Source of the DNA: a bacterium
Lineage (GTDB): Bacteria; Omnitrophota; Gorgyraeia; Zapsychrales; Zapsychraceae
Length of the DNA stretch: 64,000 bases
Assembly: GCA_030429765.1 (NCBI GenBank)
Contig: JAUIER010000002.1
Location: 130,239 to 194,238, forward strand
Direction: 5' to 3'
The notes below the pieces were generated by a model that saw nothing but the letters and a program-made list of their open reading frames with translations, made no database searches and was not told the origin of the DNA. Below, in pieces: positions 7,820-48,290 of the stretch. The position numbers and the translations under genes are program-made. Numbering within the stretch: the stretch's first letter is position 1; every line of letters begins with the position of its first letter.

Positions 7820-7853
7820 GATCAGCTTAGCCCCTGACGAGGCTAAGCTGATC
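7820..7853 (-). repeat. Perfect 13-bp stem hairpin (GATCAGCTTAGCC / GGCTAAGCTGATC, 8-nt loop) straddling the stop codon of the giant ORF
   Basis: Read directly: 7820-7832 and 7841-7853 are exact reverse complements. The TAA stop at 7827-7829 lies inside the 5' arm. No U-tract follows on the minus strand. Confidence 0.6.
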
Positions 7854-16800: not shown

Positions 16801-18122
16801 TCAAAGGCTAGATTGGCTTGATACCAATTGGCCTGAACCACTCGGTCTCCATAAATCTGAGCACTACTACCCTCACGAATTCCGGCTTCACTCCCAACCA
16901 TCCGTCGAGGTCGCTTGAGGGCATCACTGACATCCTTCGGATCACCGGTCATTGCGAAGTCAACGGTAACTTCCCGGCTGTTTCCCTGTATACTTGCTAA
17001 TTGGCGCGGTGTTAGAATATTCTCAGACTCTACCGTTTCAGCGGTTAACTGGGCAAAATCAGCCCCTCCTGAAAAGTATCGTCGCGGAACGGTACGATTT
17101 GTCATCGGATCGACATCTTCTCTAATATAATCGTACACACCTTTCTTGAACGACTCGAGGTACTGGTTATAAATTTTCTGGTTAATCTCTTTGTCTTCGG
17201 ATTCAATACCGCCAGTTCGGTTCTGATCAACATAAGCCTGCCCCAAGAAACTTTCACGAAGGTTCTGCTTGTACCAATCCGATAGAATGACGGCATGATA
17301 GATCTGCCGCAATTGGGCAAATGTCTGTCCATGATTGATTTCCTTTTCGATTTCGGGAATCAACACTTCGCGAACCACATCCAAAGATGCGCCGGTGATC
17401 ACATCCGCATCTTCAACCTTTTGACCATGTTTGACTTCAGCTTGATGATTTTCAAGCGCCAAATAGTCTTCTTCCAACATGACTTTCAGTCGGCTCTCGA
17501 CGATGACGGCGTTGTTATTGTGCTCATAGATCACGGCCTTTTCCGGCACAATCCAGATCTTGTTGAAGGTATTCATCGGAATATCGGTTGTACCGAATTT
17601 CTGGTAAGCCATTTTGTGGACGCGATCCCAAAATTTTTGACCAACTGCGTCTTCGGGATACATCATGGAGGATGTCAATTGCTTGAGCATGTAGTCCTGT
17701 GCCAACAAATCGCGCCCCATCTGCGTGGACCCGAATCCTTCGGATACCATACGGTTTTCTTCATAGGGAGACAAGTTGACCCACAACTCATTCTCCGGCA
17801 CAGTCAACGATGCCAGAAAATATTTGATCAATCGGTCAGACTCGGCCCGAAAGGCCTCATCTGAGTGAGCTTCGTCGCCAGAATCAATGATAAAGTTCAT
17901 TTGCAAAGGATCATCGGGGTGTATGGTGATTCCTTTGATAATAGTGGGTTGATAGGCGATGGACGGTGCAACGAGCGTGCCCGGAACGGGTAAGCTCAGC
18001 ACTCCGGTACTGACCGTCTGAGCGTAACTCGGAGGAACAATTGACGTGAAACAGAAGGCCAGCAGGATAAAGCTGCTGGTCAGCTGGCAAAATATACTCT
18101 TTTTAAAATTTGAAAAATTCAT
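7827..18122 (-). CDS. Giant 3431-aa multidomain protein: signal peptide + SAM-MTase-like + type-II GAPDH-like + PPDK/PEP-synthase-like module + degenerate second PEP-utilising module
   Basis: Uninterrupted 10.3-kb ORF with RBS AAAGGGGTG before the ATG. N-terminus MNFSNFKKSIFCQLTSSFILLAFCFTSIVPPSYAQ (signal peptide). Motifs by residue:
- aa 455-470 VLDASAGTGGASIY (MTase motif I);
- aa 915-925 ILGWGAGTIN, SCNTT at 1107, RRAAD at 1157, YHHAED at 1181 (archaeal GAPDH);
- aa 1723-1757 AIRSSGKAEDNA..SNAGQHDSYLG (PPDK ATP-grasp);
- aa 2239-2246 GGATSHAA (phospho-His);
- aa 2661-2672 FLSFGTNDLTQL and KCGLCGQ at 2711 (PEP-utilisers TIM barrel). Confidence 0.85.
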   Translation of the reverse strand: MNFSNFKKSIFCQLTSSFILLAFCFTSIVPPSYAQTVSTGVLSLPVPGTLVAPSIAYQPTIIKGITIHPDDPLQMNFIIDSGDEAHSDEAFRAESDRLIKYFLASLTVPENELWVNLSPYEENRMVSEGFGSTQMGRDLLAQDYMLKQLTSSMMYPEDAVGQKFWDRVHKMAYQKFGTTDIPMNTFNKIWIVPEKAVIYEHNNNAVIVESRLKVMLEEDYLALENHQAEVKHGQKVEDADVITGASLDVVREVLIPEIEKEINHGQTFAQLRQIYHAVILSDWYKQNLRESFLGQAYVDQNRTGGIESEDKEINQKIYNQYLESFKKGVYDYIREDVDPMTNRTVPRRYFSGGADFAQLTAETVESENILTPRQLASIQGNSREVTVDFAMTGDPKDVSDALKRPRRMVGSEAGIREGSSAQIYGDRVVQANWYQANLAFDLDPVVERISDTGQDVVLDASAGTGGASIYLLEQLRATGKKIKKLVLTDVEYGQSIGYMKYAQRKILNQYDDVVEEVEFYILPKLGQDEAGVDEFALVSDIPGLKADHIIMENAIHLIPKSQLVRTLKGYRDVMANNQVVLTMGSGDVQVPAFPEDHVGIHDLFDLVSEEVAFLMNNDVRFEDLRDMYNARLADETIQARKLSAFPASNTLEDIQVALAEAGFATPRTSYNRDLELEQEDYKPFITDISGYVQSRIVPELARVDRESDPYSAMRRVVVDRAYNNVYEKNPAGFRLFWTRMDVLAAKADSAMTVDVQNIGDKKFKVSYQGNEVAFGTWENDYYAVMKPIGDKDLDQDTAFRNQYYASILAFAHQHVQETGRMITLRESVAPNRMNAFLQGEVHEYAPAQDFRGIEAGFQLGEFEGTRYSTGDPSKLRRRERPYKIKYKLPGDQRASVITFKDGTGSNLRVVPETAILGWGAGTINSKIMFELNRLGYDIIVANRSPNERAKGAIQRGYKVIPLNKDGLGAYKRAGLPIYKDAAGKEVTAESYLDGAEGLERISGIVEGLDGKMNVVVDADGDPVMRDGKVLRDLPDNWEDDGLKMGSATISQITKLETWDNYDYFVIYQGSNDPDKVADGNMSDTGAFAYAGINFQPWMAQQNIMCGSCNTTSNVALLLPILASVKESVKEGSMAVDLDPSPVQVKPGSLEVDVLTIRRAADPGSPKNAIDADGFADTAFDYHHAEDAMAFFKQQLENGDMLAAFRRVKGEASYVTDATVGPQTKFHVGRAVISAEKVVSADLANDEDTIVTYDQDGNASYSQRLTADDLKLMLDKHPRVAVVDTGKKFSPTKIFSTLMNDIQRLQAFVMPVMIRERKDGKIVAFFLTPQESNVIPNNVSTVLLRTGVVAPDDVAYAVEEVDKNVGVDDIIRGLKEFNPDATLAEIIARDAAMAADEMNKALRSANLAKKVGLIPHRDDDSEEDRFFSVNRWIKAAYDADQTQTIDRVDSIINLSTDQRIEQSLLDNDIDPDELREFIKEVEFVGVQDMKNGSPTLVIRNANEYQVAHAGVTASRVYVGQGIADELGREDESLLDLLLLREAAGLFKAKSLMNDDGSNYNAAVAAGEDVANQVEAAIDKEKLNEFVQASVDAFLERYYQQLLKKNVIWDYESSVLDEKRGKELVGGKTYQQGLYWSQAPSKNLRSFGASTTASTKFLKAYKDLIPQINAILDDLDVSDEDGRRGAEASIRKLITSYDVPADIERDLREAYRELRRITKQDLVAIRSSGKAEDNAYIFKVLTDVNIGSNAGQHDSYLGESGEDAVVRRWRDDVASLYTEQVLKYRDTLMVIQAFDEILSDAEKSEEIIETLSQSSDANDQLVAEALADKNFNIVTSIKLRKALSKHGYDDQVEIVNKHRQSLLDVENIAMGVTVMPMAGVDISFVIMGHDISADWTAMGFQDIPEDEYVNRGRVATITTNYGIGESIVQGVATPDTFLVHIFEDENGSHVNILSRQLGTKTVQAVYTAPVLEKLGLIESEVEVYLNVLEGSNVLPSVGLANGVDVKDVRNVLQRLIALTVDKTVNEITDEDLQFFAYDKDDLKLLVHLLKELEEDPEMKTMFTDVSENMRNSFSATDSQVIEIAKEFMEKARGYGHLVDMEGAVGLNLGKENTPVTVQRRPSNVDGDVKKPDLIEIDYTYVPEKDLKEVRSLEEPMPNVKGEDSGLIRGELVAQGIATRNSFSGQIFKISEEKSLPSQFEEIKRLADSGVQVIIRTRETTPDYNAVLQTKNVMGVIADVGGATSHAAVMSRELGIATVVGIQSWVNKLEASVGEEKAQQILEYINTSGNVVTVDANANESTGFGAVYAGELPISKRYIEIDLKRLPEVYTRIGYIMGMPHPMLAMSKISRYSGYSGVALMRGEFAYAEENINPRFGRAYDNFLVDAYLRTVKDNPPARRYRATLNEQELEALDKFRMHLKAREDARARGIDVVLDETNLKIQEFINKGHQAFLASLDENSRRDIDLIRQHPEQISLATKQMMGYVSYNEFFEAVHGGAIATMAAANNVKNNAVLYRSIDFKKNEARELIGSEVFDPTPEVSTMIGERGARWLLQPENQIILREEIRMILRQVVKGYANIGFFFPFVSTPDELDELMRILVEEERAMSEQLQRPVYLREVGQMTELPSNVIQGDQFIKVLKDHEADQKAWFQEQFGVEISRKSFLSFGTNDLTQLTLGADRDNPDMSYLFSEAHPFVIESIRHVVNIAKELETKCGLCGQALVNLVNINPEAAETILMMLGQTGGYAGTDYLGTLASITRAASATLKHGVVDSPVASTNEAGEFAVSNRFDSQTEKGAATRPAYMVKRMSELEKSYVGDFVVLTGNLDFKVIEELDENSKATGRLLVEDESLREQFARLGAVIVARIENFSGQEDQIKAIRQLGVPIVETSVKVTGALNRELEDGDMLTIDFNNKTIYREVQDVRVDVPGLQSEIQLSETESPTESIEFDAKFRASEFYLGNNVHPLRFIETTDGEAKLRQSLKADLLLQLKDKKTRLVYETLDLQSDDLFKLKGSKKYMEEPEVNPALGFAGLDALVKDPRWERLLRIELEVLAELIEDGYRVYIQFNSVKVPESIGKALEMVEAAGIEIDSQVGMNTAWPGNYLALDQYLAQGLSFITLDERRLAQGYLSADLFKNQSVIDFYTAEKVLPNLRRPIAMITRAAADQNVAVQRVAFNDALTVDQAMVAMQALDADDEFLDLLERARAEKGQGYAGDINGKSYWLDDGFLQANSDKLISKIAEALQLLMSRNQLDADLSDGFAPAVLAEIGYSEEFIDLIAAVGRKLGLWKIYPDDIESEEFTRITYQADPSHINYPYLEDVDVQRLGLDNAMISSDKDVGGIDLDPNLFEIERKGEGSLIFPKYRGNPDNIRIQGIVPVIINVTPITNLPMILGLKDAAEDESKTISYDSLDPSDRKVRFQSEDRDQLSLVRG

Positions 18123-18194
18123 TTTTTACACCCCTTTGTGTTGACTTTAGAATCTAGCAAATTGATCATCATCTAAATAAAAATACGCCGAAAA

Positions 18195-18212: not shown

Positions 18213-18436
18213 ATTCTCGTCGGATTAATGAAAATTAACTTGGAAACTAAAGTTTTGGAATGTAAAAAATGCTACATGTAGATTGGGGAAGTAACCTTTA
18301 CAGGTATATATTAATTATACAATACTATTTCGAGTTGTCAATGGGGATCACACCCTTAACCCACTGAAAAATCGGACGTTGCGACCTCATGCAAATAGTG
18401 GGGGTACTATTCGCCCCCCTGAATCCTTTCGGGGCC

Positions 18437-18477
18437 AAAAAAAGAGGAGCAACAGGCCTTAACCTATTGCTCCTCTT
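18437..18477 (-). terminator. Rho-independent terminator of groESL
   Basis: Minus strand: AAGAGGAGCAA-(14 nt loop)-TTGCTCCTCTT followed by TTTTTTT. 11-bp perfect stem, ~50 nt after the groEL stop. Confidence 0.75.
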
Positions 18478-26073: not shown

Positions 26074-26526
26074 TTAACGTAGATTCTTTTCAATATCATT
26101 CAGAATATTCTTGGCGGCCAATGGATGTTTGAAATTATTGAACGTCTTGAATCCGATTGAATTAACCGTTAAGTATCTGACTTCAACCTCCGTTGAATTT
26201 GGCTGGGCCAGTGTTCTCAGATAAATGTTAACACGCGCATACCGTGTCCCCAGAAACATCGGAATCGCCTTCACTCCCGTGAAGATCAATATTTCCTGAC
26301 CATCTTCTGTGAGAATCGTACTGTGTTCGTACACATTCGGATCGGTTGTATCCACAATTTCCCAGCCGCCACCTTGCAGGGCAGACTTGGTGGCCTGCAA
26401 CGTCTGGTCAAATGACGCATACATTGTCTGTTTATGCGGACGGGTATCCGGAATGTATTTTGGAATGTTGACGGTGGAGCATCCGCACAGCATAATGACT
26501 ACAATTAAGCCCAGCGCTTTTTTCAT
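26074..26526 (-). CDS. Hypothetical lipoprotein
   Basis: MKKALGLIVVIMLCGCSTV lipobox. No recognisable domain. Confidence 0.5.
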   Translation of the reverse strand: MKKALGLIVVIMLCGCSTVNIPKYIPDTRPHKQTMYASFDQTLQATKSALQGGGWEIVDTTDPNVYEHSTILTEDGQEILIFTGVKAIPMFLGTRYARVNIYLRTLAQPNSTEVEVRYLTVNSIGFKTFNNFKHPLAAKNILNDIEKNLR

Positions 26527-27557: not shown

Positions 27558-27653
27558 GAAAAACGATGATCGCCTTTGATGGGACGGCGAACTTTAAAAT
27601 TCGAGGACAATGGGACACGCTGCAGTCGACCCTTTCGACGCGACAACGAGAAA

Positions 27654-28025
27654 CTATTCGTCGGTTTCCATATAAGAGCTTACATAGTCGGCAATGCTTT
27701 CCGCATCTCGCTGAGATATGTCATTGAAGAAAATCGCCACATAATGACTTTCGGTATCGCCGATTTGCTCCGCCCGAACGACAACACCCTCCGCGACAAC
27801 TTGCCTGGAAACATCCTTACCATTCTTCCGTATGGGAAGTAATAGATTCAGCTTTAACTTGGTCATCGGCTCGATGTAACGGTCCACTTTACAGTACAAA
27901 CCGGATCGGCTGATATTGCCTGTCTCCGTGACCATATCTCCCTCATCCCGGGAGATACGGATTGGAATGTTGTTACTGAGTCGTGGATCTCGACGACGAT
28001 CTTGTGATGAATTTTGATCGGTCAA
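27654..28025 (-). CDS. Single-domain PilZ protein (c-di-GMP receptor family)
   Basis: RRDPR (RxxxR) and NISRSGL (N/DxSxxG) motifs. 123 aa. Confidence 0.65.
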   Translation of the reverse strand: MTDQNSSQDRRRDPRLSNNIPIRISRDEGDMVTETGNISRSGLYCKVDRYIEPMTKLKLNLLLPIRKNGKDVSRQVVAEGVVVRAEQIGDTESHYVAIFFNDISQRDAESIADYVSSYMETDE

Positions 28026-28064
28026 ACAGCACCTCGAATTTACAACAAAAACTACTCAAAAAAT

Positions 28065-28243
28065 TTAAGCAGCGGCGTTTTCTTCCGCGGCAGCCTTCAT
28101 CTTTTCTTCAAATGCCTTGAACGCGTTCTTGTTGACGAAATATCTTCCGTTTCGATAATAGCGTTTTTTTCGCTTTAATTGAGTTCCTGTCTGTGCGCAC
28201 TTTTTACTGATATCTTCTTTTGCTTCTTCAGCCATACCGTTAC
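28065..28243 (-). CDS. Small basic hypothetical protein (56 aa) between the two PilZ genes
   Basis: Manual translation: MAEEAKEDISKKCAQTGTQLKRKKRYYRNGRYFVNKNAFKAFEEKMKAAAEENAAA*. Strong RBS GAAAGGAG 10 nt upstream. Below the 60-aa cutoff of the ORF track. Confidence 0.35.
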
Positions 28244-28278
28244 TGCTCCTTTCAACTCATAAGTGTAAATAAATTCTC

Positions 28279-28617
28279 TTAGCTGCAGGCAACTAATTGC
28301 TTGATCTGCCTGCGGGCGTCAAATAACAGTTCCGGGTTTGAAAATTCAACCCCAGCCTGATAATTGTCCATAAAGGGTATTTGGGATATCCAGACAATCC
28401 GCCCCATACATTCGATAGTTTGGCCGGATTGAAGGGTGAGATTCAGCACAACCTCGGTGTTCAGAGGCAGAAATTCTGCTAACCGCAACCTTACGCCGGT
28501 CTCGGACAGGTCATATGCCACACATCCCTTAAAATAGGCGGGATCTTTAAGCTCGTACCGAACCGCTTCTCGAAAATTGATTCTGCGTGCTACCCGTTTC
28601 TCATCAATGACGTCCAT
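28279..28617 (-). CDS. Single-domain PilZ protein
   Basis: RRINFR (RxxxR) and DLSETGV (DxSxxG) motifs. 112 aa. Confidence 0.65.
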   Translation of the reverse strand: MDVIDEKRVARRINFREAVRYELKDPAYFKGCVAYDLSETGVRLRLAEFLPLNTEVVLNLTLQSGQTIECMGRIVWISQIPFMDNYQAGVEFSNPELLFDARRQIKQLVACS

Positions 28618-28788
28618 ATCAACCTTTACATCAAATTTAACCCTATTTATTTGAGTGCATTATAGCATAAACCCCTATCGGCACAATGTTTTTTTTGAGC
28701 CGCCCCGCGAGAACAAATTTCCCCAAAAATACTTTAACCCCTTATTCTACAGGCAATTAAGAATACCTAAATCTGCAATAAATTACAA

Positions 28789-28824
28789 AACGAGGTTTAC
28801 CTCGTTATGGGCACATGATATAAT
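28789..28824 (+). promoter_or_regulatory. exeA promoter: -10 TATAAT (28819..28824) 8 nt from the ATG (leaderless-type), -35 TTTACC inside an 8-bp inverted repeat (AACGAGGT/ACCTCGTT)
   Basis: Read directly in the divergent region between the PilZ (-) and exeA (+) genes. Confidence 0.4.
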
Positions 28825-28832
28825 CCGATTGC

Positions 28833-29651
28833 ATGTACAAAGAATTTTACCATCTCAAAGAGAATCCATTTAACATCACAGCCGACCCGGACTTCTATTT
28901 CTCGAGCCAGCAGCACAAAGAGGCCATCACCCATCTGATCTACGGCATCGAGCAACGCAAGGGCATTATCGCGATAACCGGCGAAATCGGCACCGGCAAA
29001 ACCACGCTGTGCCGAACTGTGCTCAGTCAATTGGATGAAACGGTCAGGACCGCCCTGATCCTCAACCCCAGCTTTTCAGATCTTCAGCTTCTGCGCCTGA
29101 TCCTTGAAGATCTCGGCATCGAGACCAACGCGCGGACAAAATATGAGATGGTTGACGCCCTGAATTCTTTTCTGCTTGAGGAAGCCTCTCAGGGAAATAA
29201 TGTGGTCTTGATCATTGATGAGGCCCAGAACCTCAAGGTCAATCAACTGGAGCAAGTTCGCCTGCTATCCAATCTTGAGACCGAAAAAGAAAAATTGCTG
29301 CAGATTGTTCTCGTCGGTCAACCGGAACTTGTGGACAAGCTCAAGCTCAATGAATTACGTCAGTTGAACCAACGCATTGCCGTTCGGTTTCATATCGGCT
29401 CGCTGACTCGGGAGGAAATCAAAGAGTACATCCGTCACCGTCTGAAGGTTGCCCAGGATTCCGAATTTACACGATATGCCGTGCATTTTACCGAGGAAGC
29501 CGTCGAAGCCATTTTCAATATATCCAAAGGCACACCCCGCATGGTCAATATCCTGTGTGACCGGGCGTTACTTGCCGGATACGCGGCCGAAACGTTTACG
29601 ATCGACGAAAATATAATACATAAATGTTCAAGGGAGGTCGGACAAAAATGA
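28833..29651 (+). CDS. ExeA/GspA-family AAA ATPase (general secretion pathway protein A-like)
   Basis: MYKEFYHLKENPFNITADPDFYF (typical ExeA N-terminus), Walker A GEIGTGKTTL, Walker B VVLIIDEAQNL. Confidence 0.8.
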   Translation: MYKEFYHLKENPFNITADPDFYFSSQQHKEAITHLIYGIEQRKGIIAITGEIGTGKTTLCRTVLSQLDETVRTALILNPSFSDLQLLRLILEDLGIETNARTKYEMVDALNSFLLEEASQGNNVVLIIDEAQNLKVNQLEQVRLLSNLETEKEKLLQIVLVGQPELVDKLKLNELRQLNQRIAVRFHIGSLTREEIKEYIRHRLKVAQDSEFTRYAVHFTEEAVEAIFNISKGTPRMVNILCDRALLAGYAAETFTIDENIIHKCSREVGQK

Positions 29652-30247
29652 GCATTATCAATGATGCACTCAAACGGGCTCAAAAAAACATGGCCAAGAA
29701 GGATACCAAGAAACAACCGGAAAAAAAGCCCAAGACCGAAAAGACCGATCCTCCATCAACTATAAAGCAAGCCGCCAGCGCCGCGAAGGGCCCTGTGTAC
29801 CCTACGCCTATTTCACAACAACCCAAAACACCTCCCCCGCCGGCTAAAAAACCGGCCCCTGAAAAACCCAAGGCCAAAGCCAAGAAGAAAAAGAAGAAAG
29901 AAAAAATGTGGTATCAGACAATTTCTGTCATTGTGGCCATATTCTTTCTGATTACCGGCATTCTGATCGCCACCCTCTATTTCCTCAAACAACGATCTTC
30001 TGAAGACGATGGCGACCGCCGAAGCTATCAACCTAAGCGCCTCCAACGCACGTATAAACCGGGCGAGCTCAATCTGAGCGGAACATCACTGATTGAAAAC
30101 CGCCGGGTTGCACTGATTAACGGGGATATCTACGAAGAAGGGGATGTCGTCGACGGGAACAAGATCATCAGTATTGAATTGAAGAAGGTCGCACTGCAGG
30201 ATCCAGATGGGAAAGTGATTATGCTGCGGGTGAAAAAAGCCGATTAG
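29648..30247 (+). CDS. GspB/ExeB-like protein (T2SSB-type C-terminal domain), single TM, Pro/Lys-rich linker
   Basis: ATGA overlap with exeA. N-terminus MSIINDALKRAQ. TM WYQTISVIVAIFFLITGILIATLYFL. C-terminus LNLSGTSLIENRRVALINGDIYEEGDVVDGNKIISIELKKVAL resembles the GspB C-terminal motif. Confidence 0.55.
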   Translation: MSIINDALKRAQKNMAKKDTKKQPEKKPKTEKTDPPSTIKQAASAAKGPVYPTPISQQPKTPPPPAKKPAPEKPKAKAKKKKKKEKMWYQTISVIVAIFFLITGILIATLYFLKQRSSEDDGDRRSYQPKRLQRTYKPGELNLSGTSLIENRRVALINGDIYEEGDVVDGNKIISIELKKVALQDPDGKVIMLRVKKAD

Positions 30248-36418: not shown

Positions 36419-36898
36419 TTATTTCACCTTGATAATCTTGGGAATGATCTGACCGCTTTTAAATTCGATCGTGCCGTACGAGCAGTACGGCGCCCGGACG
36501 ATATCGTTGGGACTTCCCGGATTGAAGTACAGCACATTATTGATGACTTCATTGTATGGTTCATGCGAATGGCCGAAAATTACCACATCGACCTTGCTGG
36601 ACTTGAATTCACGCATCGCATTGTCGAGGGCCGGCCGCGGTGTACCGTGACCGTGAAACAATCCGATCGAAAACCCCTCGCATTTAAAAACCTGCCGCTG
36701 GGGCAACACCTGCTGCAGCGCCGGATCATCCATATTTCCGAACACGGCCTTGACCTGATTAATTCCCTGAAAGATCTTGAAATCCTCCAGCGAACAAAAA
36801 TCTCCGGCATGAACGATAAAGTCAACTGACTTGAAATCCTGAATTAACTGTTTGGGAATACTTATGGAATGTGTATCTGAAACAACACCTATTTTCAT
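36419..36898 (-). CDS. YfcE/MJ0936-family metallophosphoesterase
   Basis: MKIGVVSDTHS, GDF, GNMD, HGHG, GHSHEP metal-ligand motifs; 159 aa. Confidence 0.8.
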   Translation of the reverse strand: MKIGVVSDTHSISIPKQLIQDFKSVDFIVHAGDFCSLEDFKIFQGINQVKAVFGNMDDPALQQVLPQRQVFKCEGFSIGLFHGHGTPRPALDNAMREFKSSKVDVVIFGHSHEPYNEVINNVLYFNPGSPNDIVRAPYCSYGTIEFKSGQIIPKIIKVK

Positions 36899-38535
36899 CG
36901 CACTATATTGGGTTTATCAAACAAGGTTAGTAATACATTGAGTTCTTCTTCGTTCCAAATCCAAAACCGTTCCTGAAGGGCTTTGAGTTTGGTTTGATCG
37001 TCGGGCTTGGTCAAAGAAATCATCAGACATTTTTCAGGTTTCTGCATCAACTTCTTGGACTCGGCCAGTATGGCCGTTAAATCTGTCTCGACGAAACCTT
37101 CTTCCTTGAGAATAATCAACCAGGTGGAGCTGCTATCGGTGTTCGCCCGGATCACATTGATGGGCAGACCCGTTTTACCGTTAACCGTCGACGGCTGTAA
37201 ATCTTTGAAGATCGGCAAACGATACTTGCGGCCATTGATCTTCAACAACTCATTCTCGAAGCACGTCAGCAAGTCAACTATTCTCGAGGAGAAATCCTTG
37301 CCCGTAGTATGCTTAAACCGCTCAATACAAACGCTGAATTCATCACGGTACCGCTCCCGCTGTTTATCGGGCGTCAGGTCGACCTCCATAAGACGCTTCT
37401 GATAGACATACTGCAACCAATACTTAAAGAGTTTATCTTTGAAGTAGTGAATACGCCCATTCTTGACCACCACCCCCTCGACCTGCAGGCGGTTTAACTT
37501 CTGCGTTAATTGGGACTTGCTGATCTGCAAGACCTTTAACAAATCTTCCGATTTCTGATGTCCGTTCGCCAGCGCGATCAACAATTTGCAGACGATCTTG
37601 TTACCCTTCGTACTGCATAGATCATTGACAATCAGTTCAAAATGCCGGCTGATCACGCCCCAACGATCAAAGAGTGTGTTCTCGACGGCCTGGGTGACCA
37701 TCGGCATAAAAATCTCATCTTGCTGATGCAGTGCCTTCAGGCTGAGCAACTCCTTGGAAATCAGCGTCATGTAAAGCGGAAATCCACCAGTAAAATCGGT
37801 CAGAAAATCAATCAGGTGACCGGATATCTTGTGCCCCTCCAACAATTGCCCCAGAAACTGCTGACTATGATGCAGATCGAACGGCTCCAATTTAACCATC
37901 TCGAAATTACCAAATAACAATGACAGTTTCTCTGATAATATTTTCTTGGCCGCCTGCTTGTTTGAACTCGACAGACAGTACAAACATTTTTTCTGGGTCA
38001 TGATCTTGTTGCCCAGACTGGCAAACACATCCTGCACATCAAATTCTTCCAGATCCTGAAACTCATCAAAAAACAACACACAAAACTGACCGGATTCATT
38101 GGTATATATCTCCGGCAATGTCATGACACCTAAAAAGGCATCCGAAATCTTTCCCCGCTGAAAATCCGACTGTACACGCTTAACCACCTCGATCGTGTGA
38201 GGAATGTATTTCTTCGATTCCTCCATGAGCAGACTCAAGTCCTCATGCAGCGGCAAGTTTTTATTTTTCAGATATTCATACAACAGGCTGGCGCAGAACT
38301 TATCCAGAAAAAATGAGAAATCCTTATTTTCCAGATTCAGATAGACAGGCGTCACATCCGCGTCGTCGAGATGATGAATGAATTCCTTGAGAACGGATGA
38401 CTTACCGACATATCGATTTCCCAAAAACGCAATATTGTGCCGGTACCCTTCCTTCAGATCCAGCACACGCTTTTTTAAAAGGTCGAGCTCATCCTGCCGA
38501 CCATAGAAGAATTTTTCACAGTCCATATAGCTCAT
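36895..38535 (-). CDS. AAA+ ATPase of the archaeal-ATPase (ATPase_2/DUF234-like) family with winged-helix region
   Basis: FYGRQDELDLL...AFLGNRYVGKSSVL (Walker A), DEFQDL (Walker B); 546 aa. ATGA overlap with the downstream metallophosphoesterase gene. Confidence 0.6.
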   Translation of the reverse strand: MSYMDCEKFFYGRQDELDLLKKRVLDLKEGYRHNIAFLGNRYVGKSSVLKEFIHHLDDADVTPVYLNLENKDFSFFLDKFCASLLYEYLKNKNLPLHEDLSLLMEESKKYIPHTIEVVKRVQSDFQRGKISDAFLGVMTLPEIYTNESGQFCVLFFDEFQDLEEFDVQDVFASLGNKIMTQKKCLYCLSSSNKQAAKKILSEKLSLLFGNFEMVKLEPFDLHHSQQFLGQLLEGHKISGHLIDFLTDFTGGFPLYMTLISKELLSLKALHQQDEIFMPMVTQAVENTLFDRWGVISRHFELIVNDLCSTKGNKIVCKLLIALANGHQKSEDLLKVLQISKSQLTQKLNRLQVEGVVVKNGRIHYFKDKLFKYWLQYVYQKRLMEVDLTPDKQRERYRDEFSVCIERFKHTTGKDFSSRIVDLLTCFENELLKINGRKYRLPIFKDLQPSTVNGKTGLPINVIRANTDSSSTWLIILKEEGFVETDLTAILAESKKLMQKPEKCLMISLTKPDDQTKLKALQERFWIWNEEELNVLLTLFDKPNIVR

Positions 38536-41322: not shown

Positions 41323-42354
41323 CTACTCGGCAAAAACCTTGGCGATGCTGTAGATGTCGTCCTCGATGGCTTTGTGCTTGCTGACCGCCTCTTCGATCGC
41401 AACGGCATTAATCTTGTTTTCACGGATACTTACCATTGTCCCGTAGCGCTGCTGTTTGATCAATTCCACCGCGTGAAATCCGAAACGCGTACCGATAATC
41501 CGGTCAAAGGCCGTTGGCGTTCCGCCCCGCTGAATATGACCCAAAACACTCACGCGCGTTTCGTAGCCTGTCTTGTCCTCGATCAGATCGGCCACCAGCT
41601 CGCCGACACGGCTGACCCGATGGTTCTTTCGATTCTCTTCCTGCTCAATGCTATTCGAATGCCCGACAATCTCAGCGCCTTCGGAAACGACGATAATACT
41701 GAACGTCTTCCCTCGTTTGTGACGTTCACGCAGCGAATCGCATACCTGTTCGATATTAACCGGAAACTCGGGAACCAGAATAATGTCAGCACCGCCGGCA
41801 ATCCCCGCCTCGAGCGCAATCCAACCCGTGTAACGCCCCATGACTTCAATAACAATAATCCGATGATGACTTTCGGCCGTCGTGTGAAGCCGATCGATAC
41901 ATTCGGTGGCGATGTTAACCGCCGTGTCAAATCCAAACGCATAATCCGTTCCCGTCAGGGAATTGTCAATGGATTTGGGAACACCAATGATCGGCAGCTG
42001 ATGCTTGTTGTATAGGTCCAATCCGATCTTTAGGGTATCTTCTCCTCCAACCGCAATGATCGCGTCGATCCCGCTTCGCTTAAAATTCTCCGCCATCTTA
42101 CTCATCAGTTCGTCACCCAGCGGCGGAATAATCCGGCTGGTGCCGAGAATCGTTCCCCCTCGATCCAGAATGCCGGAAACAATCTGCAGGTCAAGCACCT
42201 TCATATTATTGTCAGCCAGCCCCATCCAGCCGTTCTTGATTCCTGTCACGACGTACTCTTCGGCCACTGCTTTACGAACCACGGCCCGGATTACAGAGTT
42301 CAGTCCCGGGCAATCAGCTCCGCCGGTGAGTATCCCAATTTTTTTCATAGTCAC
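41323..42354 (-). CDS. 6-phosphofructokinase (possibly PPi-dependent type)
   Basis: GILTGGADCPGLNSVIRAVV, GGEDT, PKSIDNSLTGTD, MGRYTGW; 343 aa. Confidence 0.9.
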   Translation of the reverse strand: MTMKKIGILTGGADCPGLNSVIRAVVRKAVAEEYVVTGIKNGWMGLADNNMKVLDLQIVSGILDRGGTILGTSRIIPPLGDELMSKMAENFKRSGIDAIIAVGGEDTLKIGLDLYNKHQLPIIGVPKSIDNSLTGTDYAFGFDTAVNIATECIDRLHTTAESHHRIIVIEVMGRYTGWIALEAGIAGGADIILVPEFPVNIEQVCDSLRERHKRGKTFSIIVVSEGAEIVGHSNSIEQEENRKNHRVSRVGELVADLIEDKTGYETRVSVLGHIQRGGTPTAFDRIIGTRFGFHAVELIKQQRYGTMVSIRENKINAVAIEEAVSKHKAIEDDIYSIAKVFAE

Positions 42355-47579: not shown

Positions 47580-48290
47580 TTATTGCTCGGCGTTGAACTC
47601 GGTCACCTTAAAAGATATGCCAATACTGAAAGTTAATTCCGGATAGCTTAATCCTTTGGGAAAATTGGTGAATGGCGCGGACTCCTTGACACTGCGAATC
47701 CCGACTTGACGTAAATATTCGCTCGCCTTGGTCTTTTCTTCGATGATCTGGACCTTTTGTAGACCTCCCGATGAATTCAGGACAAACGTGATATAGACCT
47801 GGCCTTCCTCCAGGACATCGGGATCAATATTCTCAAAGGCTTTACGCCGGATCCGCTGAAGGGTTGTCTCACTGTAGCTCACATAATTCGGATTGGTGAT
47901 CTTTTCGGAGCGGAATAAATCCACCGACATCTTACGGTCCAGATCCAGCGTCTTGATCTTGGGTGTCAATTTCTTATCCAGCGAAACCTTCTTGGCAAAC
48001 TTCGAAATATCTTTGACCTCTTTGTCAAAGACGGCGAACTGCTCTTGTGAACGCTTTAACAGCTTGATGTTTTTGGGCTTCACAACCTTTTTTTCCTTGA
48101 TAACTTCGGCCTTGGGTGGCGGTGTCGGTTCCTTCTTCGTCGAAGCTGATTTAACCCGTTGGTAGGTCACCTCCAGTGTCTGACTGCGCTTGGGCGTGGG
48201 AACAGCCGGATTGGCCGCCATATTACGAATCACCGCCAAATGCACGACACAGGACAGAAAAAAGCCGAAGTAAAATAATCTGTCTTTCAT
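47580..48290 (-). CDS. TonB-family protein (C-terminal TonB/TolA-like domain)
   Basis: N-terminal TM, Pro/Lys-rich middle (KKEPTPPPKAEVIKEKKVVKPK), C-terminal ..EGQVYITFVLNSSGGLQKVQIIE... Confidence 0.55.
   Translation of the reverse strand: MKDRLFYFGFFLSCVVHLAVIRNMAANPAVPTPKRSQTLEVTYQRVKSASTKKEPTPPPKAEVIKEKKVVKPKNIKLLKRSQEQFAVFDKEVKDISKFAKKVSLDKKLTPKIKTLDLDRKMSVDLFRSEKITNPNYVSYSETTLQRIRRKAFENIDPDVLEEGQVYITFVLNSSGGLQKVQIIEEKTKASEYLRQVGIRSVKESAPFTNFPKGLSYPELTFSIGISFKVTEFNAEQ

What the first reader, a model, noticed from the sequence alone, without database searches (positions are those of the whole stretch)
7827..18122. Giant 3431-aa chimeric ORF combining methyltransferase-, GAPDH- and PPDK/PEP-synthase-like enzyme modules behind a signal peptide
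A single uninterrupted 10.3-kb reading frame, the only gene in the window flanked by ~400-bp AT-rich intergenic regions on both sides. It encodes a protein whose recognisable parts are all enzyme folds normally found as independent cytosolic proteins:
- a class-I SAM-MTase (VLDASAGTGGAS, acidic LVLTDVE, ADHIIMENAIHLIP);
- an archaeal-type GAPDH (GWGAGT Rossmann motif, SCNTT catalytic-Cys motif, RRAAD, YHHAED);
- a full pyruvate-phosphate-dikinase/PEP-synthase-like three-domain module.
The N-terminus is a signal-peptide/anchor (…FILLAFCFTSIVPPSYA-Q). I know of no described protein with this architecture. Possible roles are an extracellular or periplasmic multi-enzyme, a toxin/effector that manipulates host central carbon metabolism, or a scaffold that has recruited enzyme folds for non-catalytic purposes.
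Basis: partly seen in the sequence, partly recalled or inferred. Interest (0 to 1): 0.9.

Follow-up and report, generated by a model that had tools for sequence, protein, structure and literature searches.

The report
Exported enzyme string of Omnitrophota family
The 3431-residue gene is real and belongs to a very large, unnamed family found only in Omnitrophota bacteria, in which intact "cytoplasmic" enzymes are strung between a constant signal-peptide-bearing head and a constant tail and look built for export, which is odd for central-metabolism enzymes.

Summary
ORF 7827..18122 (-) is an uninterrupted 3431-aa gene with its own consensus promoter. The PEP-synthase module is solid, with catalytic His and Cys kept. 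The archaeal-type GAPDH module is supported, with SCNTT Cys kept. The methyltransferase module is only weakly supported.

It is not a one-off chimera. It belongs to a head-cassette-tail family of at least 8287 clusters at 50% identity, all traced to Omnitrophota, with several to a dozen or more copies per genome.
- The head is a canonical Sec signal peptide plus a roughly 350-aa domain with no Pfam, NCBIfam or PDB match.
- The tail is a GGIDLNP...PVIINITP...LLG motif.
- The middle carries cassettes of central-metabolism enzymes.
- In this protein all five cassette boundaries carry D-x-A-M. Some other lineages use SSP[VIL] instead.

Family proteins are almost cysteine-free (0.07% against about 1% in neighbouring genes). 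The four Cys outside the signal peptide here lie within the GAPDH and PEPS active-site motifs. This points to export with catalysis retained.

The destination (periplasm, cell surface or prey cell) and the role of the junction motifs (processing site or linker) are inferred, not shown. Preprints describe enzyme domains in Omnitrophota giants of 10 kaa and more. I found no description of this head/tail/junction grammar.

The parts
7827..18122 (-). Whole gene, 3431 codons plus stop
   Evidence: the ORF listing and translation. An identical protein, P0001, is on an NCBI contig of 271,957 bp.
18314..18341 (-). Promoter-like site TTGACA-16-TATAAT (12/12 match), about 190 nt upstream of the ATG
   Evidence: It lies downstream of the groEL terminator hairpin at 18442-18477. 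The gene therefore looks independently transcribed (inferred).
18129..18137 (-). Shine-Dalgarno-like AAAGGGGTG, 6 nt before the ATG
   Evidence: Read directly from the sequence.
18021..18122 (-). Signal peptide, aa 1-34 (MNFSNFKKSIFCQLTSSFILLAFCFTSIVPPSYA|Q)
   Evidence: KD hydrophobic peak at aa 10-28. Across 221 family N-termini, 96% have a positive n-region, 96% a hydrophobic core, and 90% an A|Q site with A/S/V/G at -3.
16962..18020 (-). Head domain, aa 35-387 (LPxPG...WVNLSPYE...GRDLLAQDYxLKQ...PRRYFSGG, then a disordered linker and a short strand)
16950..16961 (-). Junction 1, DFAM (aa 388-391)
   Evidence: It coincides with HSP break-points at q389-394.
15882..16949 (-). Cassette 1, class-I methyltransferase-like (aa 392-747; motif I VLDASAGTGG at about aa 457-466)
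   Evidence: Weak. Pfam Methyltransf_12 E=1.1e-3, below cut-off. 5mpt_A E=0.03. The cassette is shared with P0002, P0013 and P0005.
15870..15881 (-). Junction 2, DSAM (aa 748-751)
   Evidence: Orthologue P0002 breaks at q751 and P0013 at q746.
13959..15869 (-). Cassette 2, archaeal type-II GAPDH-like with a roughly 150-aa N-terminal extension and insertions (aa 752-1388; GWGAGT at about aa 917-922; SCNTT with Cys1108; RRAADP; YHHAED)
   Evidence: NCBIfam NF003251 3.5e-11. The profile hits 2yyy_A at 1e-7 and 1cf2_P at 1.4e-4, collinearly. The cassette is absent from the closest orthologues and present in P0014 (twice) and P0015.
13947..13958 (-). Junction 3, DAAM (aa 1389-1392)
   Evidence: P0002 and P0004 resume at q1389.
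13293..13946 (-). N-terminal extension of the PEPS cassette (aa 1393-1610), an optional module of unknown function
   Evidence: Present in P0002-4, P0007 and P0010, and in other contexts in P0130, P0138 and P0017. Absent in P0005, P0006, P0008, P0009, P0011 and P0012.
9846..13292 (-). Cassette 3 core, PEP synthase/PPDK-like three-domain enzyme (aa 1611-2759): ATP-grasp domain, swivel domain with GGATSHAAV (His2243), and PEP-binding barrel with FGTNDLTQ (2665) and CGLCGQA (Cys2715)
8583..9845 (-). Degenerate extra PEP-utiliser-like region (aa 2760-3180). It lacks the His, GTNDL and CGQ motifs. aa 2990-3108 duplicate the first half of the PEP-binding barrel.
   Evidence: Self-comparison E=1e-5. 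Conserved at about 50-55% identity in the closest PEPS orthologues (P0002-P0004 group).
8571..8582 (-). Junction 4, DQAM (aa 3181-3184)
   Evidence: Orthologue HSPs end at q3170-3186.
8145..8570 (-). Small module of unknown function (aa 3185-3326)
   Evidence: No family hit. Partial similarity to P0013 and P0002.
8133..8144 (-). Junction 5, DNAM (aa 3327-3330)
   Evidence: Tail HSPs of paralogues start at q3321-3338.
7830..8132 (-). Tail, aa 3331-3431 (VGGIDLDPNLFEIERKGEG...IQGIVPVIINVTPITNLPMILGL, then an acidic end)
   Evidence: Found in 194 of 246 family proteins by BLAST. Consensus taken from 127 tails. No Pfam or NCBIfam hit.

Best explanation
The gene encodes a Sec-exported, catalytically competent string of enzymes. 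It belongs to a large, Omnitrophota-restricted 'head-cassette-tail' family.

The proposed working, with each step marked shown or inferred:
- Constant vehicle. The N-terminal signal peptide plus the roughly 350-aa head, and the C-terminal tail of 60-100 aa, are the constant parts. They would handle export and then anchoring, assembly or onward translocation (inferred).
- Payload. The cassettes between them are the payload. Here they are a MTase-like module, an archaeal-type GAPDH-like module, and a PEP-synthase-like module with a degenerate extra PEP-utiliser domain.
- Junctions. Each cassette is bounded by a short lineage-specific junction motif, D-x-A-M in this lineage (shown). This motif acts as a linker or processing site and marks where cassettes have been swapped (inferred).
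- Activity. The enzymes keep their active sites (shown). They are extra copies beside ordinary stand-alone cytoplasmic enzymes (stand-alone PfkA in this window and a stand-alone pgk-tpi pair in a relative are shown; that the payload enzymes are therefore surplus is inferred).
- Site of action. They most likely act outside the producer's cytoplasm: in the periplasm, on the cell surface, or inside a prey or host cell where ATP and NAD are available (inferred). There they would interconvert metabolites at the triose-phosphate, PEP and pyruvate level, as one of a dozen or more such strings per genome.
For: Real gene:
- Uninterrupted frame, own perfect sigma-70-like promoter and SD.
- Collinear orthologues in independent assemblies: P0002 at 64% identity, P0003 on 30 contigs, and P0013.

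Family:
- The head profile finds 8287 clusters at 50% identity, always at the N-terminus.
- At least 570 loci in species-representative genomes. All 78 fetched loci come from Omnitrophota bins, some of them labelled 'uncultured Planctomycetales'. Tandem arrays occur, and one MAG holds at least 12 genes.
- The tail is present in 194 of 246 proteins.
- Cargoes cover enolase, PGK, PGI, TIM, GAPDH, aldolases, FBPase, PGM, UGPase, glycogen synthase, isocitrate lyase, malate synthase, PEPCK and PEPS.

Export:
- Canonical signal peptide across the family.
- Cysteine depletion: family median 0.07%, against 0.97% in 410 neighbouring ORFs (p=3e-67) and 1.02% in 25 other window genes.

Catalysis kept:
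- The 6 Cys of this protein are 2 in the signal peptide, Cys1105 and Cys1108 at the SCNTT site, and Cys2712 and Cys2715 at the CGLCGQ site.
- The PEPS His, GTNDL and Cys motifs align to the solved PEPS structure.
- The His motif is kept in 18 of 19 and the Cys motif in 19 of 19 PEPS-bearing members. SCTTN, SHRSGE and the PGI signature are kept in other cargoes.

Extra copies:
- A stand-alone PfkA lies in this window.
- A stand-alone pgk-tpi pair lies next to a family gene in L072 and is 40-43% identical to cargo PGK and TIM.

Junctions:
- 5 D-x-A-M observed against 0.6 expected, all at module boundaries. Across the family, 373 observed against 39.8 expected.
- HSP ends fall within 5 aa of a motif 8.6% of the time, against 1.8% at random.
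- An unbiased 4-mer enrichment recovers DAAM, DSAM, DRAM and DNAM, or SSPV and SSPI.
- A PGK cassette starts 3 aa after SSPI.
Against: - No localisation or activity data exist.
- PEP synthase, kinases, GAPDH, receiver domains and DnaJ-type cargoes need ATP, NAD or cytoplasmic partners. These are absent from a normal periplasm.
- Sec export of a 3.4-kaa chain with net charge about -170 is demanding.
- No dedicated secretion or protease gene is conserved next to family genes in 78 loci.
- The head has no recognisable fold, and the AF2 models are of low to moderate confidence (pLDDT 65 and 54).
- The signal peptide was judged from rules of thumb, not with SignalP.
- The PEPS and GAPDH modules score below NCBIfam equivalog cut-offs, so their substrates may differ.
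Confidence: 0.6

Rival explanations
1. Polyprotein precursor. After export (or in the cytoplasm) a lineage-specific protease cuts at the D-x-A-M or SSP[VIL] junctions. This would release head, individual enzymes and tail as separate proteins. This is a refinement that can coexist with the best explanation.
For: - The motif sits exactly at all five cassette boundaries and is about 9-fold enriched family-wide.
- Different lineages use different motifs, as expected if site and protease co-evolve.
- Enzyme cassettes begin a few residues after the motif.
- West-Roberts et al. proposed cleavage of Omnitrophota giants but lacked cleavage points.
Against: - No protease domain was found in this protein, and none is conserved nearby.
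- Some family members of around 3700 aa lack either motif.
- D at -3 does not fit signal peptidase I.
- There is no peptide evidence.
Confidence: 0.3
2. Cytoplasmic, membrane-tethered metabolon. The N-terminal hydrophobic segment would be an uncleaved anchor, and the enzymes would work on the cytoplasmic face as scaffolded central metabolism.
For: - All cargo chemistry is cytoplasmic in type: ATP, NAD, CoA, receiver domains.
- The 2026 preprint considers inner-membrane-anchored cytoplasmic enzymes for TM-only giants.
Against: - The n-region is positive (N-in), and an A/S/V/G-x-A|Q cleavage site occurs in 90% of members. There is no second TM segment to bring the chain back into the cytoplasm.
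- Family-wide cysteine purge, not seen in neighbouring cytoplasmic proteins.
- Stand-alone cytoplasmic PfkA, PGK and TIM exist.
Confidence: 0.12
3. Non-catalytic surface coat or adhesin that has recruited enzyme folds as building blocks, in the manner of 'moonlighting' surface enolase and GAPDH.
For: - Signal peptide, acidic composition and very large size fit surface proteins.
- One GAPDH-like copy in P0014 has lost the Cys.
- aa 2760-3180 is a degenerate PEP-utiliser domain.
Against: - Catalytic His and Cys motifs are retained across orthologues and in other cargoes.
- The four cysteines outside the signal peptide lie within the two active-site motifs.
Confidence: 0.08
4. Assembly chimera or pseudogene fusion of separate genes.
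For: The GAPDH-like cassette (aa 752-1388) is missing from the nearest orthologues P0002 and P0013.
Against: - The insertion is bounded on both sides by the family's own junction motif.
- GC is even across the ORF.
- The cassette's nearest relatives are only 35-37% identical, so this is not a join of near-identical repeats.
- Head at the start and tail at the end match the family grammar.
- The chance of 3431 stop-free codons arising at random is negligible.
Confidence: 0.02

Closest known systems
Omnitrophota giant 'multi-enzyme metabolic' proteins and Archaeovorins (West-Roberts et al. 2023, bioRxiv 10.1101/2023.11.21.568195; bioRxiv 10.64898/2026.06.07.730766)
   Same: Same phylum. Central-metabolism domains (TIM, PGI, FBPase, PGM, aldolase, PPDK, methyltransferase, receiver) sit in one polypeptide behind a signal peptide. 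An extracellular location and possible proteolytic processing are discussed.
   Different: Those studies cover proteins of 10 kaa and more, or 30 kaa and more, with tens to over 100 TM helices and C39 or S8 peptidase or SecA domains. This protein is 3.4 kaa, has no TM segment beyond the signal peptide, and has no peptidase domain. The constant head, constant tail and junction motifs are not described there, as far as full-text searches show.
MARTX toxins and polymorphic toxin systems (CdiA VENN, Rhs DPxGL); from general knowledge
   Same: Constant N- and C-terminal delivery regions flank a variable, shuffled array of effector modules. Short demarcation motifs sit at module boundaries. In MARTX the modules are released by cleavage between them.
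   Different: No RTX repeats, no T1SS signal, no cysteine protease domain and no Rhs or YD repeats were detected. The cargoes are housekeeping-type enzymes, not toxins. A Sec signal peptide is present.
PEP synthase (e.g. PDB 8a8e, 2ols) and the PPDK family
   Same: All three domains are in order, with the phosphohistidine motif GGxTSHAA, FGTNDLTQ and the catalytic Cys.
   Different: About 1150 aa against about 800 aa, with long insertions. It scores 309 bits against an equivalog cut-off of 598. It is embedded in an exported multi-module protein and followed by a degenerate second PEP-utiliser region.
Archaeal type II GAPDH (PDB 2yyy, 1cf2)
   Same: Collinear matches to the Rossmann start, to SCNTT...RRAADP and to the C-terminal region.
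   Different: 637 aa against about 340 aa. It is very divergent (42.7 bits against a cut-off of 185), and it occurs in a bacterium as an internal cassette.
T9SS cargo proteins and cellulosomal dockerin enzymes; from general knowledge
   Same: An N-terminal Sec signal plus a conserved C-terminal module of about 60-100 aa on many different enzymes. This suggests a shared sorting or docking step.
   Different: The tail matches no Pfam or NCBIfam model, so no match to T9SS CTD or dockerin models was found. An additional constant 350-aa head is present. The cargoes are not hydrolases.

Membership tests
PEP-utilising enzymes (PEP synthase / PPDK) | N-terminal ATP-grasp nucleotide-binding domain (PF01326) | tested here: met
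   PPDK_N E=1.2e-34, aa 1621-1966
PEP-utilising enzymes (PEP synthase / PPDK) | Swivel domain with phosphohistidine in G-G-x-T-S-H-A-A | tested here: met
   PF00391 E=1.2e-14. GGATSHAAV aligns to GGRTSHAAI of 8a8e_A.
PEP-utilising enzymes (PEP synthase / PPDK) | C-terminal PEP/pyruvate-binding barrel with GTNDL and the catalytic Cys | tested here: met
   PF02896 E=1.8e-38. FLSFGTNDLTQ and CGLCGQA align to 8a8e_A.
PEP-utilising enzymes (PEP synthase / PPDK) | Score at or above the curated PEP synthase equivalog cut-off | tested here: not met
   NF005057 309 bits against 598. TIGR01418 276 bits against 740. It is homologous, but equivalence of function is not established.
PEP-utilising enzymes (PEP synthase / PPDK) | Pyruvate,water dikinase activity | not testable with these tools
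   Needs an enzyme assay.
Type II (archaeal) GAPDH | Catalytic Cys in the SCNTT motif, followed by RRxADP | tested here: met
   S1107-C1108-N-T-T and RRAADP align to 2yyy_A and 1cf2_P.
Type II (archaeal) GAPDH | N-terminal Rossmann NAD(P)-binding start (GYGxIG) | tested here: inconclusive
   GWGAGTINSK aligns to GYGSIGKR of 2yyy_A, but the stretch E-value is only 0.41.
Type II (archaeal) GAPDH | Score at or above the curated cut-off, and the usual size of about 340 aa | tested here: not met
   NF003251 42.7 bits against 185. The cassette is 637 aa with an extension and insertions.
Class I SAM-dependent methyltransferase | Rossmann-like fold with motif I (hhDxGxGxG) recognised by a curated model | tested here: inconclusive
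   VLDASAGTGG is present. Methyltransf_12 scores 20.1 bits against a cut-off of 30. 5mpt_A E=0.03. hhalign to a family MTase cargo gave probability 2%.
Omnitrophota giant proteins (Archaeovorin / multi-enzyme class) | Length of 10-30 kaa or more with many TM helices | tested here: not met
   3431 aa, and only the N-terminal hydrophobic segment is TM-like.
Omnitrophota giant proteins (Archaeovorin / multi-enzyme class) | Several central-metabolism enzyme domains in one signal-peptide-bearing polypeptide of an Omnitrophota genome | tested here: met
Omnitrophota giant proteins (Archaeovorin / multi-enzyme class) | C39 or S8 peptidase, or SecA-like domains | tested here: not met
   None found in Pfam or NCBIfam scans.
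Head-cassette-tail family (defined here) | Sec signal peptide followed by the conserved head (LPxPG...WVNLSPYE...YFSGG) | tested here: met
   aa 1-387, 50-60% identical to paralogues.
Head-cassette-tail family (defined here) | C-terminal GGIDLNP...PVIINITP...LLG tail | tested here: met
   aa 3331-3431
Head-cassette-tail family (defined here) | Cassette boundaries marked by the lineage's junction motif, and near-absence of cysteine | tested here: met
   5 of 5 boundaries carry D-x-A-M. Cys is 0.17%, and outside the signal peptide all lie at active-site motifs.
MARTX / polymorphic toxins | RTX or Rhs repeats, a T1SS signal or an autoprocessing protease domain | tested here: not met
   No such Pfam or NCBIfam hits. 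The resemblance is architectural only.

The most novel reading that the evidence does not exclude
Omnitrophota maintain a second, extracytoplasmic set of central-carbon enzymes, covering glycolysis/gluconeogenesis, PEP/pyruvate, glycogen/UDP-glucose and the glyoxylate shunt. These enzymes are exported as head-cassette-tail strings through a phylum-specific sorting grammar. They may be cut at the D-x-A-M or SSP[VIL] junctions and delivered to the cell surface or into prey or host cells, where they would harvest or rewire the victim's metabolism.
Probability: 0.35. Interest if true: 0.9.

Novelty: new variant of a known kind. Interest (0 to 1): 0.74.

Why it matters
Omnitrophota are widespread, uncultured, ultra-small and probably predatory or parasitic bacteria. 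Their huge genes are a recognised puzzle. Published work could not say where such proteins might be cut, or what organises them.

This window gives a compact 3.4-kaa example that exposes a simple grammar:
- a constant exported head;
- enzyme cassettes;
- short junction motifs;
- a constant tail.

The grammar is shared by thousands of proteins, and none of its constant parts is in Pfam or NCBIfam.

The combination of a canonical signal peptide, family-wide cysteine purge and retained active sites makes a clear, testable claim: complete ATP- and NAD-dependent central-metabolism enzymes work outside the producer's cytoplasm.

If that is true, it would be a new mode of bacterial exo-metabolism or prey manipulation. 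It would also supply cleavage-site and domain-boundary rules for dissecting the 10-150-kaa giants.

Tried and rejected
Searches and tools that led nowhere:
- tRNA and Rfam scans of the window found nothing.
- The look-up of encoding contigs had no record for P0001.
- The homologue search with the GAPDH cassette alone returned nothing, not even the query itself, so the word prefilter failed. I worked around this with an alignment built from P0014 and P0015.
- The homologue search with a tail profile returned only short fragments, mostly from contig ends. It was uninformative on whether tails occur without heads.
- hhalign of the MTase cassette against a family member with a Pfam-positive MTase gave probability 2%.

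Head-tail contact:
- A 54-protein whole-length alignment crashed.
- A whole small family member, P0180, was modelled instead. Confidence was low (pLDDT 54) and no coordinates were returned, so head-tail contact could not be checked.

Genomic context and junction motifs:
- Clustering of neighbouring ORFs in 78 loci found no conserved partner such as a protease or secretion gene.
- I considered and rejected the idea that D-x-A-M marks internal translation starts. There is no SD-like sequence upstream of the five ATGs, and some other lineages use SSP[VIL], which has no Met.
- I considered and rejected the Bacteroidetes O-glycosylation motif D-(S/T)-(A/I/L/V/M/T). Position 2 here is mostly A or Q.
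- I considered and rejected Tat export. There is no twin-arginine motif in the n-regions I read (the family N-termini printed).
- The hydrophobic peak at aa 1866-1884 lies inside the ATP-grasp core and recurs in orthologues, so I read it as part of the fold rather than a TM helix.

Full report
**1. The observation**

The minus strand carries an ATG-initiated ORF at 7827..18122 encoding 3431 aa without a stop.
- With about 5% stop codons expected per random codon, a stop-free run of this length cannot arise by chance.
- The flanking intergenic regions (393 and 406 bp) both have GC 0.372, against 0.475 for the window.
- The upstream region holds a strong hairpin plus T-run, which I read as the groEL terminator (18442-18477).
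- It also holds a perfect TTGACA-16-TATAAT site (18314-18341) and a Shine-Dalgarno-like AAAGGGGTG just before the ATG.
- The gene therefore looks independently transcribed.
- The neighbours are housekeeping genes: dnaE, guaA, an IMPDH-like gene, groEL, coaX, DUF2207/LemA and uvrB. Further along lie pfkA, accC, rpoA and secY.
- This is a bacterial chromosome, not a mobile element.

**2. The three enzyme claims**

PEP synthase/PPDK: confirmed.
- All three Pfam domains hit, in order (1.2e-34, 1.2e-14, 1.8e-38).
- The best solved relative is PEP synthase 8a8e_A (1.2e-38, five collinear stretches).
- The phosphohistidine motif GGATSHAAV (His2243), FGTNDLTQ and CGLCGQA (Cys2715) are all aligned.
- The module is about 350 aa longer than normal and scores below NCBIfam equivalog cut-offs (309 against 598 bits).
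- aa 2760-3180 is a degenerate extra PEP-utiliser-like region without catalytic motifs.

GAPDH: supported.
- NCBIfam type II GAPDH scores 3.5e-11 but only 42.7 bits.
- A profile of the four available copies of this cassette hits the archaeal GAPDHs 2yyy_A (1e-7) and 1cf2_P (1.4e-4).
- The hits are three collinear stretches that include SCNTT...RRAADP.
- The cassette is 637 aa, with a roughly 150-aa N-terminal extension and insertions.

Methyltransferase: weak.
- Motif I VLDASAGTGG is present, but Pfam is below cut-off and the PDB E-value is 0.03.

**3.

A homologue search returned 1155 hits.
- Apart from about 12 PEPS-bearing orthologues, the 120 hits listed were Omnitrophota proteins of 1900-5300 aa.
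- Mapping those 120 listed hits onto the query showed that they share only aa 1 to about 355-390 (50-60% identity), and in most cases also aa 3325-3430 (35-50% identity).
- Between those two ends they carry quite different enzymes: enolase, PGK, PGI, TIM, GAPDH, class I and II aldolase, FBPase, phosphoglucomutase, UGPase, glycogen synthase, isocitrate lyase, malate synthase, PEPCK, acyl-CoA dehydrogenase, receiver domains and others.

A profile of the head (A1) was searched against 1.84 billion representative proteins.
- It found 8287 clusters (6675 at E<=1e-30).
- The head is always at the N-terminus, in proteins of 420 to over 5300 aa.

In species-representative genomes at least 570 loci were found.
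- All 78 fetched loci come from Omnitrophota bins, some of them labelled 'uncultured Planctomycetales'.
- There are several copies per genome, and tandem arrays of three to five genes occur.
- One MAG (MAG246) holds at least 12 genes in four loci.

Minimal complete members are head, plus about 250 aa of cargo, plus tail (681-830 aa).

The tail consensus is vGGIDLNPalLdLQIKRDGnGvpLPl.qQPIenmnIeGFvPVIINITPvtNLPlLLGl, followed by a variable acidic end. It is present in 194 of 246 family proteins in hand.

Neither head nor tail matches Pfam or NCBIfam.
- The AF2 head model (mean pLDDT 65, with most of residues 20-260 at about 60-90) is a mixed alpha/beta domain.

**4. Junction motifs**

The query contains D-x-A-M five times, where 0.6 is expected. 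The positions are aa 388, 748, 1389, 3181 and 3327.
- These are exactly where alignments to orthologues and paralogues break: q389-394, q746-758, q1389-1398, q3170-3186 and q3321-3338.
- Family-wide the motif is 9.4-fold enriched (373 against 39.8).
- Some other lineages lack it and carry SSP[VIL] at the same places.
- An unbiased 4-mer enrichment in cargo regions recovers DAAM, DSAM, DRAM and DNAM (50-67x) in one set of genomes and SSPV and SSPI (91-135x) in another.
- HSP end-points among 179 proteins fall within 5 aa of a motif 8.6% of the time, against 1.8% at random.
- In P0045 the PGK cassette starts 3 residues after SSPI.
- The GAPDH-like cassette of this gene is absent from its closest orthologues and is inserted precisely between two D-x-A-M sites.
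- That fits cassette shuffling rather than misassembly.

**5. Where does the protein go, and is it active?**

Two independent family-wide signals point to export.
- First, the N-termini are canonical Sec signal peptides. Of 221 N-termini, 96% have a positive n-region (median +3), 96% a hydrophobic core, and 90% an A|Q site with A, S, V or G at -3. There is no later TM segment.
- Second, cysteine is almost eliminated. The family median is 0.07%, against 0.97% in 410 neighbouring ORFs (Mann-Whitney p=3e-67) and 1.02% in 25 other genes of this window.
- From general knowledge, cysteine exclusion is a known trait of exported proteins in bacteria.
- The giant has only six Cys: two in the signal peptide, Cys1105 and Cys1108 at the GAPDH SCNTT site, and Cys2712 and Cys2715 at the PEPS CGLCGQ site. 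Outside the signal peptide, cysteine survives only within the two active-site motifs.
- Catalytic motifs are also kept in 18-19 of 19 PEPS-bearing members and in GAPDH, enolase and PGI cargoes.

Ordinary stand-alone enzymes coexist with the cassettes.
- pfkA lies in this window.
- A pgk-tpi pair lies next to a family gene in L072, at 40-43% identity to cargo PGK and TIM.
- The cassettes are therefore additional copies.

What is not shown:
- the compartment reached after Sec export;
- how ATP- and NAD-dependent enzymes would be supplied there;
- what head and tail bind;
- whether the junctions are cut.

No conserved accessory gene lies next to family genes.

In the AF2 model of a small member (P0180), the first tail segment (GGIDxNP...IDIQKRG) has local pLDDT 68-84 although it is flanked by disorder. 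This hints that it packs on something, but no coordinates were available to check.

**6. Comparison with what is known**

- West-Roberts et al. (2023 preprint) report TIM, PGI, FBPase, PGM, aldolase and PPDK domains in predicted extracellular parts of Omnitrophota giants of 30 kaa and more. They propose proteolytic processing but state that cleavage points are unknown.
- A 2026 preprint on proteins of 10 kaa and more defines a 'multi-enzyme metabolic cluster' class. It finds that these proteins carry signal peptides and/or many TM helices.
- The general phenomenon is therefore on record, though unexplained.
- Full-text searches found no description of the mid-size family, its head and tail, the junction motifs, or the cysteine purge.
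- Architecturally the nearest analogues are MARTX and polymorphic toxins (constant delivery ends, shuffled effector modules, demarcation motifs) and T9SS or cellulosomal enzymes (signal peptide plus a C-terminal sorting or docking module).
- None of their defining domains is present.

**7. Verdict**

- The gene is a genuine member of a very large, unannotated, Omnitrophota-specific family of exported enzyme strings.
- I rate it a new variant of a known kind.
- It is of high interest because it turns a vague puzzle into specific tests: signal-peptide cleavage, junction cleavage, head-tail docking, and cassette activity.

Noticed in passing
window 41323-42354 (-): A stand-alone 343-aa phosphofructokinase (Pfam PFK 1.2e-107). 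The same genome therefore has ordinary cytoplasmic glycolytic genes beside the exported enzyme string.
   Followed up: partly
L072 3824-5002 and 5036-5788 (+): A stand-alone pgk-tpi pair lies immediately downstream of a family gene (L072 156-3708). It is 40% and 43% identical to the PGK and TIM cassettes of P0045 and P0116. Cargo enzymes are paralogues of housekeeping ones.
   Followed up: partly
window 18314-18341 and 18442-18477 (-): A perfect 12/12 sigma-70 consensus promoter follows a 16-bp-stem terminator hairpin after groEL. The leader before the giant gene is about 190 nt and was not examined.
   Followed up: no
P0014 aa 433-1030 versus aa 1043-1650 (alignment A2): One protein carries two copies of the GAPDH-like cassette. 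The first has lost the SCNTT cysteine (NSDAT) and RRAADP, so some cassettes decay to non-catalytic forms.
   Followed up: partly
78 related loci (e.g. L067 1457-4591): Single-domain response-regulator receiver genes are the most recurrent neighbours of family genes (11 of 78 loci). Receiver domains also occur as cargo (PF00072 in P0017, P0018, P0065, P0091).
   Followed up: no
P0249, P0288, P0354, P0359, P0307 (tail-profile hits): ORFs of 80-120 aa that consist only of the tail motif sit on long contigs (49-155 kb). P0307 is the gene next to family member P0078. They may be frameshift-split tails or genuine stand-alone tails. Two tail fragments are binned as Bathyarchaeia and Deltaproteobacteria (P0264, P0267), which is probably mis-binning.
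   Followed up: no
L020, L045, L069, L021, L036 family genes: Some long family members (up to about 3700 aa) contain neither D-x-A-M nor SSP[VIL], and no other enriched 4-mer was found. The junction grammar is therefore not universal, or it uses a degenerate motif in those lineages.
   Followed up: partly
window 28833-29651 (+), 36895-38535 (-): Two AAA/STAND-type ATPase genes (AAA_22/nSTAND1, and AAA_16/ATPase_2). The first is one of the few plus-strand genes in a window that is otherwise almost all minus-strand. It lies next to a 1.2-kb gap (27558-28832) with no ORF of 150 aa or more.
   Followed up: no
window 1-64000: GC skew is negative in every 1-kb bin, and nearly all genes are on the minus strand. 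The whole window lies on one replichore with strong co-orientation of genes.
   Followed up: no
window 26074-26526, 29624-30247, 47580-48290: ORFs of 150-236 aa with no Pfam hit at the thresholds used.
   Followed up: no
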